Source: a virus. From it: a stretch of 50,347 nt of DNA. The translations under genes were made by a program, and so were the position numbers. The notes beneath the pieces are model-generated. The model was not told the DNA's origin and did no database searches. It saw only the letters and a program-made list of their open reading frames with translations. Positions 2,241 to 18,232 of the stretch are shown here, piece after piece. Location: the IMG/VR virus record IMGVR_UViG_3300045988_092645, positions 1 through 50,347 of that record; one strand, written 5' to 3'. Each line of letters opens with the position of its first letter. Position 1 is the first letter of the stretch.

Positions 2241-2319
2241 TTATCCTGCTCTACTATTTGTTTTTTGTTCTTTTATATCTGCTACTGTATAATTATCTAA
2301 TGCATACCACAAGGCACTA
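2241..2319 (-). CDS. terL: terminase large subunit, exon 3 of 3
   Basis: Reads (F)SALWYALDNYTVADIKEQKTNSRAG*. This supplies the conserved TerL C-terminal H-x-x-[DS]-A-L-[RW]-Y-A motif that is missing from exon 2. Confidence 0.75.
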
Positions 2320-3277
2320 CGATATATTGACTTGGCTTTTTATCCATGTCCTCTTATAGTTGTCATTCCTACAAGTCTAGCATACCTATTAACTTTTTAT
2401 AGTTTAGACTACGAACTTTATACTTACCTCTTACTGTCCAATTATGCTGAATAGCTTGCGTGATATTTACTTTATTGTCGAAAAATCTTCTTGCTTCACG
2501 ATTTGAATAGAAATAGAATTTTTGCTTTGTTTCAATATCAGTTATGACAACAGATTGTAGTTTTTGTTTTCTGTTTATTTTTAGCACACGGCTTAAATCT
2601 GAATCTTCTAAAATATAATATTCCATAACCCGTGTATTAATGCCTCTAACAGTTCTATTTATTGCTTTTCCGGCTTCATCCAACGAGCTAAACTTGCCTA
2701 TGTACTGTAATCTGAAATCATACACACAACATTCTGTGCCATGTATTCCCCACATATTATATTGTGTTATGTGATTTTCCATATTGCCTTTCCTATCAGT
2801 CCATCGTAAATTGCTATACTTGTTATTTGTTTTGTTTGTGTCTATATGGTCAATCTCATTATATTGCTCTGAATGTCCAGAAACAAAACCATATCCAACT
2901 AACCTATGAACAAAACATTTTTTCCACCTTCTCTCACCTTTTAACTTTAAGGCTACTTGTTTATATCCTGTGCTGTTATAACTTTGTTTTAGTTCATTTC
3001 CATCTTTTCCATAAACATTACCATATTTGTCTACTTCGTAAATATCTAATACCTGTTCATAATCCTTTGCTAATGTATTTACTTTCTTCCTCTCATACAT
3101 TACTGGCAAACTCCTTTCTTAAATCACAATGGCTCTTGGGAACATTATTCTTTCGTCAGTTCCTATGCGTTGTGCGTGTCATGCGGCTATACGCTCCATA
3201 ACTTCCGCTCGGGTTGGCATCTCAGCTTTTCCCGTTTTTCCATCGTTTTATACACCCCTAGTCTTGTGGTATTTTTA
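2320..3277 (-). mobile_element. group I intron 2 in terL, carrying an HNH homing endonuclease
   Basis: P1 pairing: exon ACACCUU with intron GGGGUGU, with U.G at the splice site. The intron ends in G. The 5' part is a GC-rich structured segment. A GUAGUCUAAAC element is shared with intron 1. The exon phases restore the TerL frame. Confidence 0.7.
2369..3100 (-). CDS. HNH homing endonuclease (intron-encoded)
   Basis: YGNVYGKDG...YKQVAL N-terminal module plus EIDHIDTNKTNNKYSNLRW (HNH_3-type). The ATG at 3100 follows an AAAGGAG RBS. Confidence 0.85.
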   Translation of the reverse strand: MYERKKVNTLAKDYEQVLDIYEVDKYGNVYGKDGNELKQSYNSTGYKQVALKLKGERRWKKCFVHRLVGYGFVSGHSEQYNEIDHIDTNKTNNKYSNLRWTDRKGNMENHITQYNMWGIHGTECCVYDFRLQYIGKFSSLDEAGKAINRTVRGINTRVMEYYILEDSDLSRVLKINRKQKLQSVVITDIETKQKFYFYSNREARRFFDNKVNITQAIQHNWTVRGKYKVRSLNYKKLIGMLDL

Positions 3278-3504
3278 AAGGTGTGAGCATCAATATTAAA
3301 TTGGTCATATATTGGTTCATCCTTCGTATCCTTTGCATAAACTAAATCTTTTAGCTCTATGATTGTGTTTACACAACGAGGCGAACAGACAATCTTTTTA
3401 AACCTCTTTATTTTCTTTGTGTTTTGTAATCTACTACCAATGTACTTTTTGCACTTCTTAACATAAAAACCTTCTTGCCTGTAATACTGAATTGTTTTAG
3501 GTTC
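3278..3504 (-). CDS. terL: terminase large subunit, exon 2 of 3
   Basis: EPKTIQYYRQEGF...CSPRCVNTIIELKDLVY...FNIDAHTF matches the TerL nuclease-domain pattern DSAEPksI...C.NT..EL..Y. Confidence 0.8.
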
Positions 3505-4343
3505 CAATATATTCTGCATAGGTCGCTACTCTATACACGTTCTCTTATGAACTGCTTATACTTTCATATAAGTTTAGACTATATCTTAGCATTTCTGCCC
3601 CATGCTTTTCCACACGCTTATGTGTACTCTACTTACTTCCATTATATTTTGGATATCTAACATAATGTGTTTTCGATAGTCGTTGAATAGCTTGTTCTTT
3701 CGTTAGTTTTTGATATGAAAACAAATATCCTTTGTGTTGTCTTTCAATTCCTCTACATACATTTGCAACATGACTTCTATTAAATCCATCATAAGACGCA
3801 TCTGCTGTTGATTTATAATTACAAATATAATTACCATCTAAATCATATTTGTAAACCATCTTCGATAAACTCCAATCATTATTTTCCTTTGGAGTTACCC
3901 AACACAGATTGTCTGCATTATTATTTTTTCTGTTTTCGTCTTTATGATTAACATATTTTCTTTTTGATGTTTCTCCTTTTACAAAAGCCTTTGCGACTAA
4001 TCTGTTTACTCTAACATAATTTACTTTGTTATGTTTTGTTGTAAGAACAACATTCAAATAACCACCTGTTTTCTCATACTGCTTTAACTCTTTTCTATGA
4101 AAGACATCTACAACCTTTCCTCCATTTGTTCTGAGAGAAAATACTCTTCCATCATAAGAAACATAATATCCATCGTTTATATGCTCAAACCCTTTTATTT
4201 TATTTATTTGTTTCACTTTCATATCAAAATCCTCCGTTTACTTTAAACTACTACTGATTACCCAATCCTTAAAATTATCACGCTACGGTATTTAAGGCTC
4301 TAAGGGCTTCCCAGTATTTAACATGGTTAAGTACCAAAAATTT
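3505..4343 (-). mobile_element. group I intron 1 in terL, carrying an HNH homing endonuclease
   Basis: P1 pairing: exon AGUGCU with intron GGUACU, with U.G at the splice site. The terminal nucleotide is G before GAACCU. The conserved S element AAGAUAUAGUC is at 3577..3587. Hairpins AGCAU/AUGCU and CUUAUA/UAUAAG are present. Confidence 0.8.
3629..4222 (-). CDS. HNH homing endonuclease (intron-encoded)
   Basis: YYVSYDGRVFS module plus VNHKDENRKNNNADNLCWVTPKENN (HNH_3-type). GGAGG RBS. Confidence 0.85.
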   Translation of the reverse strand: MKVKQINKIKGFEHINDGYYVSYDGRVFSLRTNGGKVVDVFHRKELKQYEKTGGYLNVVLTTKHNKVNYVRVNRLVAKAFVKGETSKRKYVNHKDENRKNNNADNLCWVTPKENNDWSLSKMVYKYDLDGNYICNYKSTADASYDGFNRSHVANVCRGIERQHKGYLFSYQKLTKEQAIQRLSKTHYVRYPKYNGSK

Positions 4344-5387
4344 AGCACTATCACATATAATTGGCTTATCTAGTGCGATAGACCTATCTTTCACCTTTTG
4401 TACATCATCCCTTTTGGAAAACTTATCATCAGTTATATTGTTCATATATACTTCATCATAAATATATAAAACCTTTTCTTCATCATCAACACAACAAGAG
4501 ATAAGTGCATTAAATGATGTTTCAAAACCAAAGTCAAAACCAAAGAAATGAAATTTTGATGGAATCCTATGTACAACTGCCTTAAACTCTTTTGCATTTG
4601 TAGCAACTGTAAAATTCGGTAACACTTTTGTTCCATTTGCTCCAAACTTACCAAATCTGGCTACTTGATACAATGATTCATCAATATATTTTAATTCCTC
4701 AAGATTATCTATATATGATTGTGGCAAGAATGGGTTGTCATCAACTGTACTATGATGGTAGTAAACACCATTCTTTTTGTTTACTAATGTTTTCCGTCTG
4801 TATAACTCTTCTTCATCCTGTATAGTCTTCTTAATAATCTTGTCTTCCTTCTTTTCTGTATGTGTAAAGAATAAATCATACACCCAGTTTTCCCTGCCTA
4901 CAGGATTACACGTTAATATAAAATGCAATGTCATATTAGGCTGTCTGACACGTCCTAATACCTCTGTGTAGGCTTTGTAATTTAATTCAGAACATTCTTC
5001 CATCCAAACGATGGAAACTCCATGTATGGACTTTATCTTCTCTGTATTGTCCATTCCTCTGAATATGATTCTGCTACCATTCGGAAAGCGTACCTCCATT
5101 GGAGACTTAACAAACACTATTTTGTTTTTGTCTTTGTCTTTAAATGATAACAAATCCATATCACTAACTATTTGTTTTAATATTTCAAAACAAGAATCCT
5201 TTATCGTTGTAAATACATTTCTTACAACTAGACAAGTACGTTTTTCTTGTAATAATTTTAACACTATCTTCTGTGCTGTTGCTTGGCTCTTACCACTACC
5301 ATAACCGCCAATTACTAAATATTTTTCATAATCCCAGTCCATGATATAGGATGAAAACCTTTCTGATATTTTTACATCAATATCCAT
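4344..5387 (-). CDS. terL: terminase large subunit, exon 1 of 3 (ATPase domain)
   Basis: Walker A GGYGSGKS, Walker B VWMEECSE, ends ...PIICDSA. The last 21 codons of the track ORF (KFLVLNHV...) are read-through into the intron. Confidence 0.85.
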
Positions 5388-5888: not shown

Positions 5889-5962
5889 TGGAAAGTGTAG
5901 GAATCGAACCTACGACCTGTCGGTTATGAGCCGAGTGCTACTACCATCTGAGCTAACTTTCC
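5889..5962 (-). tRNA. tRNA-Met (anticodon CAU; an Ile2/lysidine identity cannot be excluded)
   Basis: Cloverleaf: acceptor GGAAAGU/ACUUUCC, anticodon loop CUCAUAA, T arm GUAGG-UUCGAUU-CCUAC, discriminator A. The D stem has one mismatch. Confidence 0.85.
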
Positions 5963-5965
5963 TTA

Positions 5966-6037
5966 CTGGGTATGTTGGATTTGAACCAACGTATCTAGGA
6001 GTCAAAGTCCTATGCCTTACCGCTTGGCTAATACCCA
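5966..6037 (-). tRNA. tRNA-Gln (anticodon UUG)
   Basis: Acceptor UGGGUAU/AUACCCA (U1:A72), anticodon stem UAGGA/UCCUA, loop CUUUGAC, T arm GUUGG-UUCAAAU-CCAAC. Confidence 0.85.
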
Positions 6038-17962: not shown

Positions 17963-18232
17963 CTACATAAAAGGAATTGTCATATATTCCTCTTTATACT
18001 TCTTCGCAAGCTCTCTATTATTGTGTCCTTTTTCTGAGTGCTCCATATCTTCAATATAATGCATCTGTTTGTCTCTAAACCATTCTTTGTCAACAAGGAT
18101 ATAGTCAATACCATCTAACTGGTATAATAAAAGTTTTTCTCCTACCTTACCACAGAAGATATATCTTTTTTCGTTTTTTCTTCCTTCCTTGTTGATTGAA
18201 AAAATATCTCCAAATTTAATTGTCTTTTTCAT
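17963..18232 (-). CDS. hypothetical protein
   Basis: Track ORF. Confidence 0.5.
   Translation of the reverse strand: MKKTIKFGDIFSINKEGRKNEKRYIFCGKVGEKLLLYQLDGIDYILVDKEWFRDKQMHYIEDMEHSEKGHNNRELAKKYKEEYMTIPFM

What the first reader, a model, noticed from the sequence alone, without database searches (positions are those of the whole stretch)
2241..5387. Terminase large subunit split into three exons by two HNH-bearing group I introns
The TerL ATPase ORF (5387..) stops making TerL sense after ...PIICDSA. The motif continues 840 nt downstream as EPKTIQYYRQEGF...CVNTIIELKDLVY...FNIDAHTF. It finishes another 958 nt downstream as SALWYALDNY...RAG*.

Both gaps contain an HNH_3-type endonuclease ORF and show group I intron hallmarks that are visible in the sequence.
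- Intron 1 (3505..4343): P1 pairs exon AGUGCU with GGUACU, with a U.G at the splice site. The intron ends in G and carries the conserved S element AAGAUAUAGUC.
- Intron 2 (2320..3277): P1 pairs ACACCUU with GGGGUGU. It ends in G and shares UAGUCUAAAC and AUAAGAG with intron 1.

Splicing as proposed gives 1044 + 227 + 79 nt = 449 codons plus a stop, and restores the DSAEP and H-x-x-[DS]-A-L-x-Y-A motifs. Packaging would therefore depend on two RNA self-splicing events. The two introns look like paralogs that have spread within a single gene.
Basis: partly seen in the sequence, partly recalled or inferred. Interest (0 to 1): 0.7.

Follow-up and report, generated by a model that had tools for sequence, protein, structure and literature searches.

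The report
Phage terminase gene with two introns
The phage's DNA-packaging motor gene (terminase large subunit) is interrupted by two self-splicing group I introns, each carrying its own homing-endonuclease gene; this is real, but it is an arrangement already known in other phages.

Summary
On the minus strand, 5387..4344 + 3504..3278 + 2319..2241 join into a 449-aa TerL. It matches Pfam Terminase_3 and the whole of Terminase_3C across both junctions, and it is colinear with thousands of uninterrupted ~450-aa homologues.

Near-identical phages carry neither intron, only intron 1, or only intron 2, always with these exact boundaries.

Both inserts fold as group I introns, with strong covariation:
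- **Intron 1** (6 sequences): 98% of cells paired, and 27 of 71 pairs show compensatory changes.
- **Intron 2** (24 sequences): 95% paired, 15 of 30 pairs compensatory. P1, P3 and P7 also covary.

Rfam's Intron_gpI model misses both window copies. ORF-less relatives of intron 1 score 71-93 bits. One sibling of intron 2 reaches threshold, and its alignment maps the same helices as my model.

Both ORFs are I-HmuI-like HNH endonucleases. They sit in L6 (intron 1) and L8 (intron 2).

The shared UAGUCUAAAC in intron 2 is coding sequence, not the S element. The introns are not recent paralogs.

TerL genes split by two or three group I introns are already published (Bastillevirinae; Twort is cited as another case), so this is a new member of a known kind.

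Intron 2 belongs to a large metagenomic family that Rfam almost always misses.

The parts
4344..5387 (-). terL exon 1 (aa 1-348; ATPase domain with Walker A GGYGSGKS, and the start of the nuclease domain). Ends ...GAU AGU GCU.
   Evidence: Terminase_3, 2e-57. One search shows colinearity with uninterrupted homologues.
3505..4343 (-). Intron 1, 839 nt, a group IA (Twort/r1t-like) intron.

Helices:
- P1: 4349-4344 / 4335-4330
- P3: 4326-4322 / 3604-3600
- P4: 4316-4311 / 4257-4252
- P5: 4307-4304 / 4263-4260
- P5a: 4297-4291 / 4273-4267
- P6: 4251-4245 / 3693-3687
- P7: 3681-3677 / 3581-3577
- P7.1: 3667-3662 / 3645-3640
- P7.2: 3624-3620 / 3615-3611
- P8: 3599-3597 / 3590-3588
- P9: 3572-3566 / 3561-3555 (GAAA loop)
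- P9.1: 3552-3549 / 3542-3539
- P9.2: 3536-3531 / 3521-3516
- omega-G: 3505
   Evidence: 98.1% of cells paired, 27 of 71 pairs with changes on both sides, slid controls 24-43%. ORF-less relatives score 71-93 bits on Rfam Intron_gpI; the 3' core resembles introns of Lactococcus phage r1t, Staphylococcus Twort-like phages and Bacillus AR9.
3629..4222 (-). Intron 1 ORF, 197 aa, an I-HmuI-like HNH homing endonuclease. RBS GGAGG lies at 4235-4231. The ORF sits in the P6 loop. Its last ~65 nt also form P6 3', J6/7, P7 5' and P7.1.
   Evidence: HNH_3 4.7e-8, NUMOD4 0.0017; PDB 1U3E, 2.7e-9; phrog_59, 2.5e-27.
3677..3686 (-). Intron 1 R element (UCAAC GACUA: J6/7 plus the P7 5' strand), embedded in the ORF's 3' end.
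   Evidence: The pattern search finds the same element in 50 viral contigs.
3577..3587 (-). Intron 1 S element AAGAUA UAGUC (J8/7 plus the P7 3' strand).
3278..3504 (-). terL exon 2 (aa 349-423 plus two bases of codon F424).
2320..3277 (-). Intron 2, 958 nt, a group I intron of a divergent IA-like family.

Helices and junctions:
- P1: 3284-3278 / 3258-3252
- P10 guide ACUA: 3262-3259
- P3: 3246-3240 / 3132-3126
- J3/4 AAAAAC: 3239-3234
- P4: 3233-3231 / 3213-3211
- P5: 3226-3217
- P6: 3210-3206 / 3176-3172
- P6a: 3202-3197 / 3183-3178
- P7: 3168-3164 / 2384-2380 (GCAUA/UAUGC)
- P7.1: 3163-3159 / 3143-3139 (GAAA loop)
- P8 base: 3125-3121 / 2395-2391
- J8/7: 2390-2385
- P9: 2375-2369 / 2359-2353
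- P9.1: 2350-2344 / 2335-2329 (loop AUAAAAAG)
- omega-G: 2320
   Evidence: P1 covariation: 23 CACGUU/GGCGUGU, 3 CACCUU/GGGGUGU, none mixed. (P3). (95.3% paired, 15 of 30 pairs compensatory). (P7 covariation). (sibling L238 at 50.3 bits, with the same helix map). (a 13-33 nt P8 hairpin in ORF-less members exactly where the ORF sits).
2369..3100 (-). Intron 2 ORF, 243 aa from the ATG at 3100, an I-HmuI-like HNH homing endonuclease. RBS AAGGAG lies at 3116-3111. The ORF sits in the P8 loop. Its 3' end overlaps P8 3', J8/7, P7 3' and P9 5'. The stop codon UAG is part of P9.
   Evidence: HNH_3 5.2e-7; 1U3E, 7.6e-11; phrog_959, phrog_59.
2241..2319 (-). terL exon 3 (last base of F424, aa 425-449, then the TAA stop).

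Best explanation
terL is transcribed as one pre-mRNA carrying two group I introns.

**Splicing (inferred mechanism)**
- Each intron folds into the group I core: P1, then P3 to P9, with the P3/P7 pseudoknot.
- An exogenous guanosine bound in P7 attacks the 5' splice site. That site follows the U that forms a U.G pair with the internal guide sequence: U4344 for intron 1 and U3278 for intron 2.
- The freed exon 3'-OH then attacks the bond after the terminal G (G3505 and G2320).
- Removing both introns gives the 449-aa TerL ATPase-nuclease, so genome packaging depends on two splicing events.

**Mobility (inferred)**
- Each intron carries an I-HmuI-like HNH endonuclease gene in a peripheral loop: L6 in intron 1 and L8 in intron 2.
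- The endonuclease is expected to nick intron-less terL alleles of co-infecting phages and copy the intron into them (homing).

**What is shown and what is inferred**
- Shown here: the exon structure, the RNA secondary structure by covariation, kinship with recognised group I introns, and the presence/absence polymorphism.
- Inferred: catalysis, GTP dependence and endonuclease-driven homing.
For: **Exon structure**
- The spliced product is a complete TerL.
- It is colinear with 4397 homologues at E<=1e-10, the best at 450-456 aa.
- The terL genes of L006-L010 (97-98% identical at the protein level, ~94% at the nucleotide level) are contiguous exactly at both junctions.
- L003, L011-13 and L034 carry only intron 2. 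Dulem virus 36 carries only intron 1. CS266P1-4 carry both.

**Intron 1**
- Six sequences cover 13 helices and 71 pairs, with 98.1% of cells paired.
- 27 pairs show compensatory changes, and 0 of 500 shuffles reach this. Slid controls give 24-43% paired.
- The exon-IGS helix P1 changes from AGUGCU/GGUACU to UCGGCU/GGUCGA.
- P3 covaries at 4 of its 5 pairs.
- Canonical R and S elements are present.
- ORF-less relatives that share the R element score 71-93 bits on Rfam Intron_gpI.

**Intron 2**
- P1 covaries with no mixed cases.
- A 7-bp P3 lies at the same position in 27 of 38 members, with 12 or more different sequences.
- P6, P6a, P7.1, P9 and P9.1 are 95.3% paired, and 15 of 30 pairs are compensatory.
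- P7 covaries across the wider family: GACUA/UAGUC, GAGUA/UACUC, GCACA/UGUGC, GAUUA/UAAUC, GCGUA/UACGC and GCAUA/UAUGC.
- Sibling L238 reaches the Rfam threshold, and its CM alignment gives the same helix assignment as mine.

**ORFs**
- Both match HNH_3, PDB 1U3E (I-HmuI) and phrog_59.
Against: - Rfam Intron_gpI gives no hit on the window, either at gathering score or at E<=10.
- It also misses almost every ORF-less member of the intron 2 family.
- In the window's own intron 2 subfamily, P7 (GCAUA/UAUGC) is invariant. Its unpaired base lies on the 3' strand rather than as the usual 5'-strand bulge, so the G-binding site is inferred.
- The P8 base of intron 2 is weak in the window (5 bp, two of them G.U wobbles).
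- In the cultured relative CS266P3, intron 1 ends in A rather than G. This is not expected of a working group I intron.
- There is no RNA evidence of splicing.
Confidence: 0.93

Rival explanations
1. Genes in pieces. Two free-standing HNH endonuclease genes inserted into terL, and the three fragments are translated separately and reassemble. This would resemble the Aeromonas phage Aeh1 NrdA split by mobE (recalled from memory).
For: - GenBank annotates the relatives this way: a truncated terminase, endonucleases and hypothetical proteins.
- In the window, an in-frame ATG lies 15 nt upstream of exon 2 (ORF 3519..3187).
Against: - The sequences between the ORFs and the exons are highly structured RNA. 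They covary with each other and with the exon ends (P1).
- Exon 3 encodes 25 aa with no usable start or RBS. There is no ORF of 30 aa or more there.
- In CS266P3 there is no start codon between a UAG stop and the start of exon 2.
- The Terminase_3C domain would be cut inside its fold, at DSA|EP and HTF|SA.
Confidence: 0.03
2. Decayed insertions. The introns no longer splice, and terL is a pseudogene in a defective or mis-assembled genome.
For: - Rfam finds no hit on the window.
- CS266P3 intron 1 lacks the terminal G.
Against: - All helices are intact in the window copies, and both ORFs are open.
- The exons contain no frameshift or stop.
- The same two-intron layout occurs in four plaque-isolated Clostridium phages and several complete ~50-kb viral contigs.
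- The pattern of compensatory substitutions indicates ongoing selection on the RNA fold.
Confidence: 0.03
3. Another kind of intervening element: a group II intron, an intein or a transposon.
For: None beyond the presence of insertions.
Against: - There is no reverse transcriptase and no group II domains (no Rfam group II hit).
- The inserts carry stop codons in the terL frame and separate RBS-led ORFs, so they are not inteins.
- I looked for no terminal repeats or target duplications, and none are needed, because the excision boundaries are those of group I splicing (U.G and omega-G).
Confidence: 0.01

Closest known systems
Group I introns in terminase large subunit genes of Bastillevirinae Bacillus phages (PMC11878797). 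Twort is cited in PMC6409932 as having HNH-bearing introns in terL.
   Same: - terL is split by two or three group I introns.
- The intron loops carry HNH endonuclease ORFs of PHROG 59 with NUMOD4.
- Rfam matches are partial or missing when a long ORF-bearing loop splits the core.
   Different: - The TerL family differs (Terminase_3, ~450 aa, in ~50-kb gut phages of Clostridia), and so do the insertion sites.
- No splicing data exist for this phage.
Twort / phage K / r1t-type subgroup IA2 introns (Staphylococcus lysK and orf142 introns, Lactococcus r1t)
   Same: - Intron 1 shares the R element CAACGACUAUCGAA and P7.1 plus P7.2 between P7 and P3'.
- It also shares the S element AAGAUAUAGUC, a GAAA-capped P9 and the P9.1/P9.2 tail.
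- blastn gives 78-86% identity over the 3' core.
   Different: - Intron 1 has no P2 hairpin and only a 3-bp P8.
- It carries its ORF in L6.
- Assignment to IA2 rests on architecture and on memory of the Twort ribozyme sequence, not on a GISSD model.
SPO1 DNA polymerase intron with I-HmuI (PDB 1U3E)
   Same: - Both intron ORFs match I-HmuI (E 2.7e-9 and 7.6e-11).
- They are HNH enzymes encoded inside group I introns of phages of Gram-positive hosts.
   Different: - Sequence identity is low, and the target gene is different.
- Nicking activity is not tested.
Rfam RF00028 Intron_gpI
   Same: - The core topology is the same.
- ORF-less relatives of intron 1 score 71-93 bits.
- One intron 2 sibling scores 50.3 bits, with a matching helix map.
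   Different: - The window copies and about 20 ORF-less members of the intron 2 family score below threshold.
- L131's copy, the one re-scanned at the relaxed threshold, gave no Intron_gpI hit even at E<=10.
- Intron 2's P7 is GCAUA/UAUGC, not GACUA/UAGUC.

Membership tests
Group I intron - intron 1 | The 5' splice site follows a U that forms a U.G pair in P1 with an internal guide sequence. | tested here: met
   AGUGCU/GGUACU has a U.G at the splice site. P1 is 100% paired in 6 sequences, and 3 pairs changed on both sides (helix 1).
Group I intron - intron 1 | Terminal guanosine (omega-G) at the 3' splice site. | tested here: met
   G3505 is the terminal base. All window-type relatives (L171, L174 and others), CS266P1/P4 and Dulem 36 also end in G. 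CS266P3 alone ends in A.
Group I intron - intron 1 | A P3-P9 core with the P3/P7 pseudoknot, a P4-P6 domain and conserved R and S elements. | tested here: met
   One search covers 13 helices. P3 covaries at 4 of 5 pairs. P7 GACUA/UAGUC is invariant. R lies at 3686-3677 and S at 3587-3577.
Group I intron - intron 1 | Score at or above the gathering threshold on Rfam RF00028. | tested here: not met
   The window gives no hit, even at E<=10; a 594-nt ORF splits the core. ORF-less relatives with the same R element score 71-93 bits.
Group I intron - intron 2 | U.G at the 5' splice site in P1 with an internal guide sequence, a P10 with the 3' exon, and omega-G. | tested here: met
   - P1 is ACACCUU/GGGGUGU, against ACACGUU/GGCGUGU in 23 relatives, with no mixed cases.
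- ACUA, immediately 5' of the guide, pairs with the 3' exon UAGU.
- All 17 TerL-type copies end in G.
Group I intron - intron 2 | The P3/P7 pseudoknot enclosing P4-P6. | tested here: met
   - P3: a perfect 7-bp helix in 27 of 38 members, with 12 or more distinct sequences. Own partners average 6.66 pairs and foreign partners 5.26.
- P7: six covarying pair sets across the wider family, with 2 exceptions among 22.
Group I intron - intron 2 | A canonical guanosine-binding P7: a G-C pair with a bulged 5'-strand nucleotide. | tested here: inconclusive
   A G-C pair is present in GCAUA/UAUGC. However, the extra base lies on the 3' strand, and the helix is invariant in the window's subfamily.
Group I intron - intron 2 | Score at or above the gathering threshold on Rfam RF00028. 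| tested here: not met
   The window gives no hit. About 20 ORF-less family members also give none. Only L238, which has a canonical P7, reaches 50.3 bits against a threshold of 50.
Group I intron - both introns | Guanosine-dependent self-splicing. | not testable with these tools
   This needs in vitro transcription and splicing, or RNA from infected cells.
Subgroup IA | Extra hairpins P7.1/P7.2 between the P7 5' strand and the P3 3' strand. | tested here: met
   Intron 1 has both P7.1 and P7.2, and both covary. Intron 2 has one hairpin there, with 3 of 5 pairs covarying. No GISSD subgroup model was available.
I-HmuI-like HNH homing endonuclease | An HNH (His-Me finger) domain related to I-HmuI, encoded in an intron loop with its own RBS. 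| tested here: met
   Both ORFs match HNH_3, PDB 1U3E and phrog_59/959. RBS GGAGG and AAGGAG lie upstream. Cleavage and homing are not testable here.
TerL (Terminase_3 / Terminase_3C) | An N-terminal ATPase with a Walker A motif plus a complete C-terminal RNase H-like nuclease. | tested here: met
   This holds for the spliced product only: Terminase_3 at 2e-57 and Terminase_3C over profile positions 1-154 of 155.
Genes-in-pieces split by a free-standing endonuclease | Each fragment has its own translation start. | tested here: not met
   Exon 3 has no start or RBS. CS266P3 has no start for exon 2.

The most novel reading that the evidence does not exclude
Intron 2 may represent a large, compact family of phage group I introns that has not been catalogued.

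- ORF-less forms are about 230-250 nt.
- Shared features are no P2, a single P7.1, a P9.1 with the invariant loop AUAAAAAG, and a P7 that drifts among six sequences.
- It is almost invisible to Rfam RF00028.
- In blastn with the window's intron 2 5' core, it matched only four of 50,697 deposited phage genomes.

If so, phage intron surveys based on Rfam systematically undercount split genes.
Probability: 0.35. Interest if true: 0.4.

Novelty: new member of a known kind. Interest (0 to 1): 0.3.

Why it matters
**Annotation.** The public records of the closest cultured relatives (Clostridium phages CS266P1-4 and Dulem virus 36) list a truncated terminase, 'DNA endonuclease' genes and hypothetical proteins. 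The correct model is one 449-aa TerL made from three exons.

**Detection.** A covariance-model scan alone would have rejected a true pair of introns. Intron 2's family is a concrete set of sequences that could improve group I intron models for phages.

**Biology.** An essential late gene depends on two ribozymes. The presence/absence polymorphism among ~94%-identical terL genes shows that these elements are actively exchanged in gut phage populations. So does the hyper-divergent patch at the intron 2 insertion site.

Tried and rejected
- **Rfam on the window.** Neither the gathering-score scan nor the E<=10 scan gave any intron hit.
- **Rfam on ORF-less intron 2 relatives.** No hit at gathering score or at E<=10 on L131.
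- **My first hand model of intron 2.** I took AGUCUA...UAGACU as P7 and treated 'UAGUCUAAAC' as an S element. I rejected this because the 5' arm varies like codons in relatives without compensation.
- **My first reading of intron 1.** I took AGCAU...AUGCU as P8 and UAGAGUA as P7 5'. I rejected this once P3 (CCAUG/CAUGG) was seen to covary and the true R element was found inside the ORF.
- **A blind all-against-all column covariation scan.** Run on a MAFFT alignment, it found almost nothing because the variable hairpins were misaligned. I replaced it with anchor-based and helix-specific counts.
- **The look-up of encoding contigs for P0115.** The protein is not on record.
- **Literature search for the CS266P phages.** No paper was found.
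- **S-like match AGGAUAUAGUC at 18096 (+).** It lies on the non-coding strand of a minus-strand gene block, so I treated it as chance.
Full report
**1. The observation**

terL lies on the minus strand. The ORF that starts at 5387 stops making TerL sense after ...PIICDSA and runs on to a stop at 4278.

Joining 5387..4344, 3504..3278 and 2319..2241 (1044 + 227 + 79 nt) gives 449 codons and a stop.

- The product matches Pfam Terminase_3 (2e-57).
- It also matches Terminase_3C over profile positions 1-154 of 155, that is, across both proposed junctions.
- A search of 5.8 billion proteins found 4397 relatives at E<=1e-10, the best at 450-456 aa.
- In an alignment of ten of them the spliced protein is colinear, with DSA|EPKTIQYYRQ and HTF|SALWYALD intact.

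**2. Natural controls**

Public sequences supply every combination of intron presence and absence:

| Relatives | Intron 1 | Intron 2 |
|---|---|---|
| IMG/VR contigs L006-L010 (97-98% identical TerL) | absent | absent |
| L003, L011-L013, L034 | absent | present |
| Dulem virus 36 | present | absent |
| Clostridium phages CS266P1-4 | present | present |

- At the DNA level the intron-less alleles are contiguous exactly at the proposed junctions.
- Their exon sequence differs right at the sites. At junction 1 they read GCA|GAG instead of GCU|GAA.
- At junction 2 there are 12-13 mismatches in the 30 nt around the site, against about 1.7 per 30 nt elsewhere.
- This pattern fits co-conversion during homing, or target-site escape.

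**3. Intron 1 (4343..3505)**

Rfam's Intron_gpI model does not hit the window, either at gathering score or at E<=10.

By hand, and by comparison with five relatives, the RNA folds as a group IA intron. It has P1, P3, P4, P5, P5a, P6, P7, P7.1, P7.2, P8, P9, P9.1 and P9.2.

- The canonical R element (UUCAACGACUAUCGAA) is hidden inside the 3' end of the ORF.
- The S element AAGAUAUAGUC lies at 3587..3577.

I counted pairs on an alignment of six ORF-deleted sequences:

- 98.1% of 425 cells form standard pairs.
- 27 of 71 pairs changed on both sides.
- None of 500 shuffles reaches these values.
- Sliding the partners by 1-3 columns gives 24-43% paired.

The exon-guide helix P1 changes from AGUGCU/GGUACU to UCGGCU/GGUCGA in CS266P3. 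The long-range P3 covaries at four of its five pairs.

A pattern search with the R element found 50 viral contigs. In these, the ORF-less relatives score 71-93 bits on Rfam Intron_gpI at exactly those places.

The 3' core is 78-86% identical to introns of Lactococcus phage r1t, Staphylococcus Twort-like phages (lysK) and Bacillus AR9 terL. One such site is annotated 'Intron_gpI'.

The HNH ORF (4222..3629) occupies the P6 loop.

**4. Intron 2 (3277..2320)**

This intron belongs to a different family. A 16-base core pattern recovered 79 viral contigs. A pattern that leaves P7 free recovered more than 119. These include ORF-less versions of about 230-250 nt.

My model is:

P1; J1/3; P3 5' (ACGAUGG); J3/4 (AAAAAC); P4 with a small P5; P6 with a variable P6a; J6/7 (AA); P7 5' (CGCAUA); a single P7.1 hairpin; CAAGAG; P3 3' (CCAUUGU); P8; J8/7; P7 3' (UAUGC); P9; P9.1 with the invariant loop AUAAAAAG; a short tail; omega-G.

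Evidence for each element:

- **P1.** 23 distinct copies have exon CACGUU with guide GGCGUGU, and 3 (the window included) have CACCUU with GGGGUGU. None is mixed.
- **P3.** A perfect 7-bp helix sits at the same position in 27 of 38 members, with at least 12 different sequences. Foreign partners pair worse (mean 5.26 against 6.66 of 7).
- **P6, P6a, P7.1, P9 and P9.1.** 95.3% of 716 cells are paired, and 15 of 30 pairs are compensatory. Slid controls give 24-50%.
- **P8.** ORF-less members have a 13-33 nt hairpin of unrelated sequences exactly where the ORF-bearing members have 732-740 nt.
- **P7.** It is invariant in the window's subfamily but covaries in the wider family: GACUA/UAGUC, GAGUA/UACUC, GCACA/UGUGC, GAUUA/UAAUC, GCGUA/UACGC and GCAUA/UAUGC. 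There are two exceptions among 22.

Rfam still misses nearly all members of this family. One sibling with the canonical P7, L238:2610-2862, reaches 50.3 bits against a threshold of 50. Its CM alignment assigns P3, P4, P5, P6, P7, the insert after P7, P3', P8, J8/7 and P9 just as my model does.

The ORF (3100..2369) lies in L8. Its 3' end doubles as P8 3', J8/7, P7 3' and P9 5'.

**5. The ORFs**

Both ORFs have the HNH_3 domain. Both match the solved I-HmuI structure 1U3E, and both fall in PHROG 59/959. PHROG 59 is the family reported for intron ORFs in Bastillevirinae (PMC11878797).

The two proteins are 28% identical to each other.

**6.

- The strings UAGUCUAAAC and AUAAGAG shared by the two introns are coincidental. 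In intron 2 the first is codons (S-L-N) that change freely in relatives.
- The introns are not recent paralogs:
  - the ORF sits in a different loop in each;
  - the core families differ;
  - each intron is distributed independently of the other;
  - the endonucleases are distant from each other.
- The suggested refutation criterion, 'no covariance-model hit', would have given a false negative.

**7. Rival explanations**

*Separately translated gene pieces.* This is contradicted on three counts:
- The RNA structure covaries with the exon ends.
- Exon 3 has no start codon.
- CS266P3 has no start codon for exon 2.

*Decay to a pseudogene.* This is contradicted by intact helices, open reading frames and the same layout in four plaque-isolated phages.

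*Group II introns, inteins and transposons.* None of these fits the anatomy.

**8. Comparison with what is known**

terL genes split by two or three group I introns are documented in Bastillevirinae, where splicing was examined from cDNA (PMC11878797). HNH-bearing introns in the terL of Staphylococcus phage Twort are cited in PMC6409932. The Bastillevirinae paper also notes that Rfam's model is incomplete for phage introns.

This case is therefore a new member of a known kind, in a different TerL family and host group (gut Clostridia phages).

The less ordinary by-product is the intron 2 family:
- It is abundant in IMG/VR.
- In blastn with the window's 5' core, it matched only four deposited phage genomes.
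- Rfam nearly always misses it.

**9. Open point**

Intron 1 of CS266P3 ends ...CAAAUA|GAACC, with A where omega-G should be. Its P7 is unchanged. A 5-bp P10 (GGUUU/GAACC) supports the same 3' splice site. I could not tell whether this is a sequencing error, a crippled intron or use of another splice site.

**10. Verdict**

- Novelty is low: a new member of a known kind.
- Interest is 0.3.
- There is a modest chance (0.35) that the intron 2 family is an uncatalogued group I subgroup worth describing.

Noticed in passing
L001 (Clostridium phage CS266P3, OP172777.1), 3' end of terL intron 1, ~locus 2811-2822 (minus strand): This copy of intron 1 ends ...AAUACAAAUA|GAACCU, with A where the universally conserved terminal G should be. 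P7 is unchanged, and a 5-bp P10 (GGUUU/GAACC) supports the same 3' splice site. CS266P1 and CS266P4 have the G.
   Followed up: partly
window 3263-3292 and 2305-2319 (exon flanks of intron 2), against L006-L010: Intron-less alleles from near-identical phages have 12-13 mismatches in the 30 nt around the intron 2 insertion site, against about 1.7 per 30 nt elsewhere. Four amino-acid changes result (A421S, T423V, F424L, A426S). This looks like a co-conversion tract or an endonuclease-escape site.
   Followed up: partly
L086-L164 and L212-L292 (IMG/VR): The intron 2 core defines a large family of compact group I introns in viral metagenomes, spread over many host genes and genome sizes. Rfam RF00028 misses about 20 of the 21 ORF-less members tested. 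blastn with the window's intron 2 5' core matches only four of 50,697 deposited phage genomes.
   Followed up: partly
OP172775-OP172778 (CS266P1-4) and PP511521 (Dulem virus 36): The public annotations list a truncated 'terminase large subunit', 'DNA endonuclease I-HmuI' genes and 'hypothetical proteins' where there is a single intron-split terL. The hypothetical proteins are exon 2 read through into intron 2, and similar artefacts.
   Followed up: yes
window 5889-5962 and 5966-6037 (minus strand): Two tRNA genes, tRNA-Met (CAT) and tRNA-Gln (TTG), sit about 500 nt upstream of terL.
   Followed up: yes
L179:776-1744 (minus strand): Three ORF-less Intron_gpI hits (111, 81 and 93 bits) are packed within 1 kb of one viral contig. 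A single gene there seems to be interrupted three times at very short intervals.
   Followed up: no
L049 and L053 (IMG/VR TerL loci): The tblastn pieces of terL overlap oddly here (aa 1-425 then 414-449 in L049; aa 1-438 then 425-447 in L053). This suggests a duplicated or shifted exon end at the intron 2 site in these relatives.
   Followed up: no
L212 and L256: These two members of the wider intron 2 family pair a variant P7 5' strand (GAGUA, GACUA) with the common UAUGC 3' strand, several hundred nt downstream. They may be hybrid or tandem introns, or broken copies.
   Followed up: no
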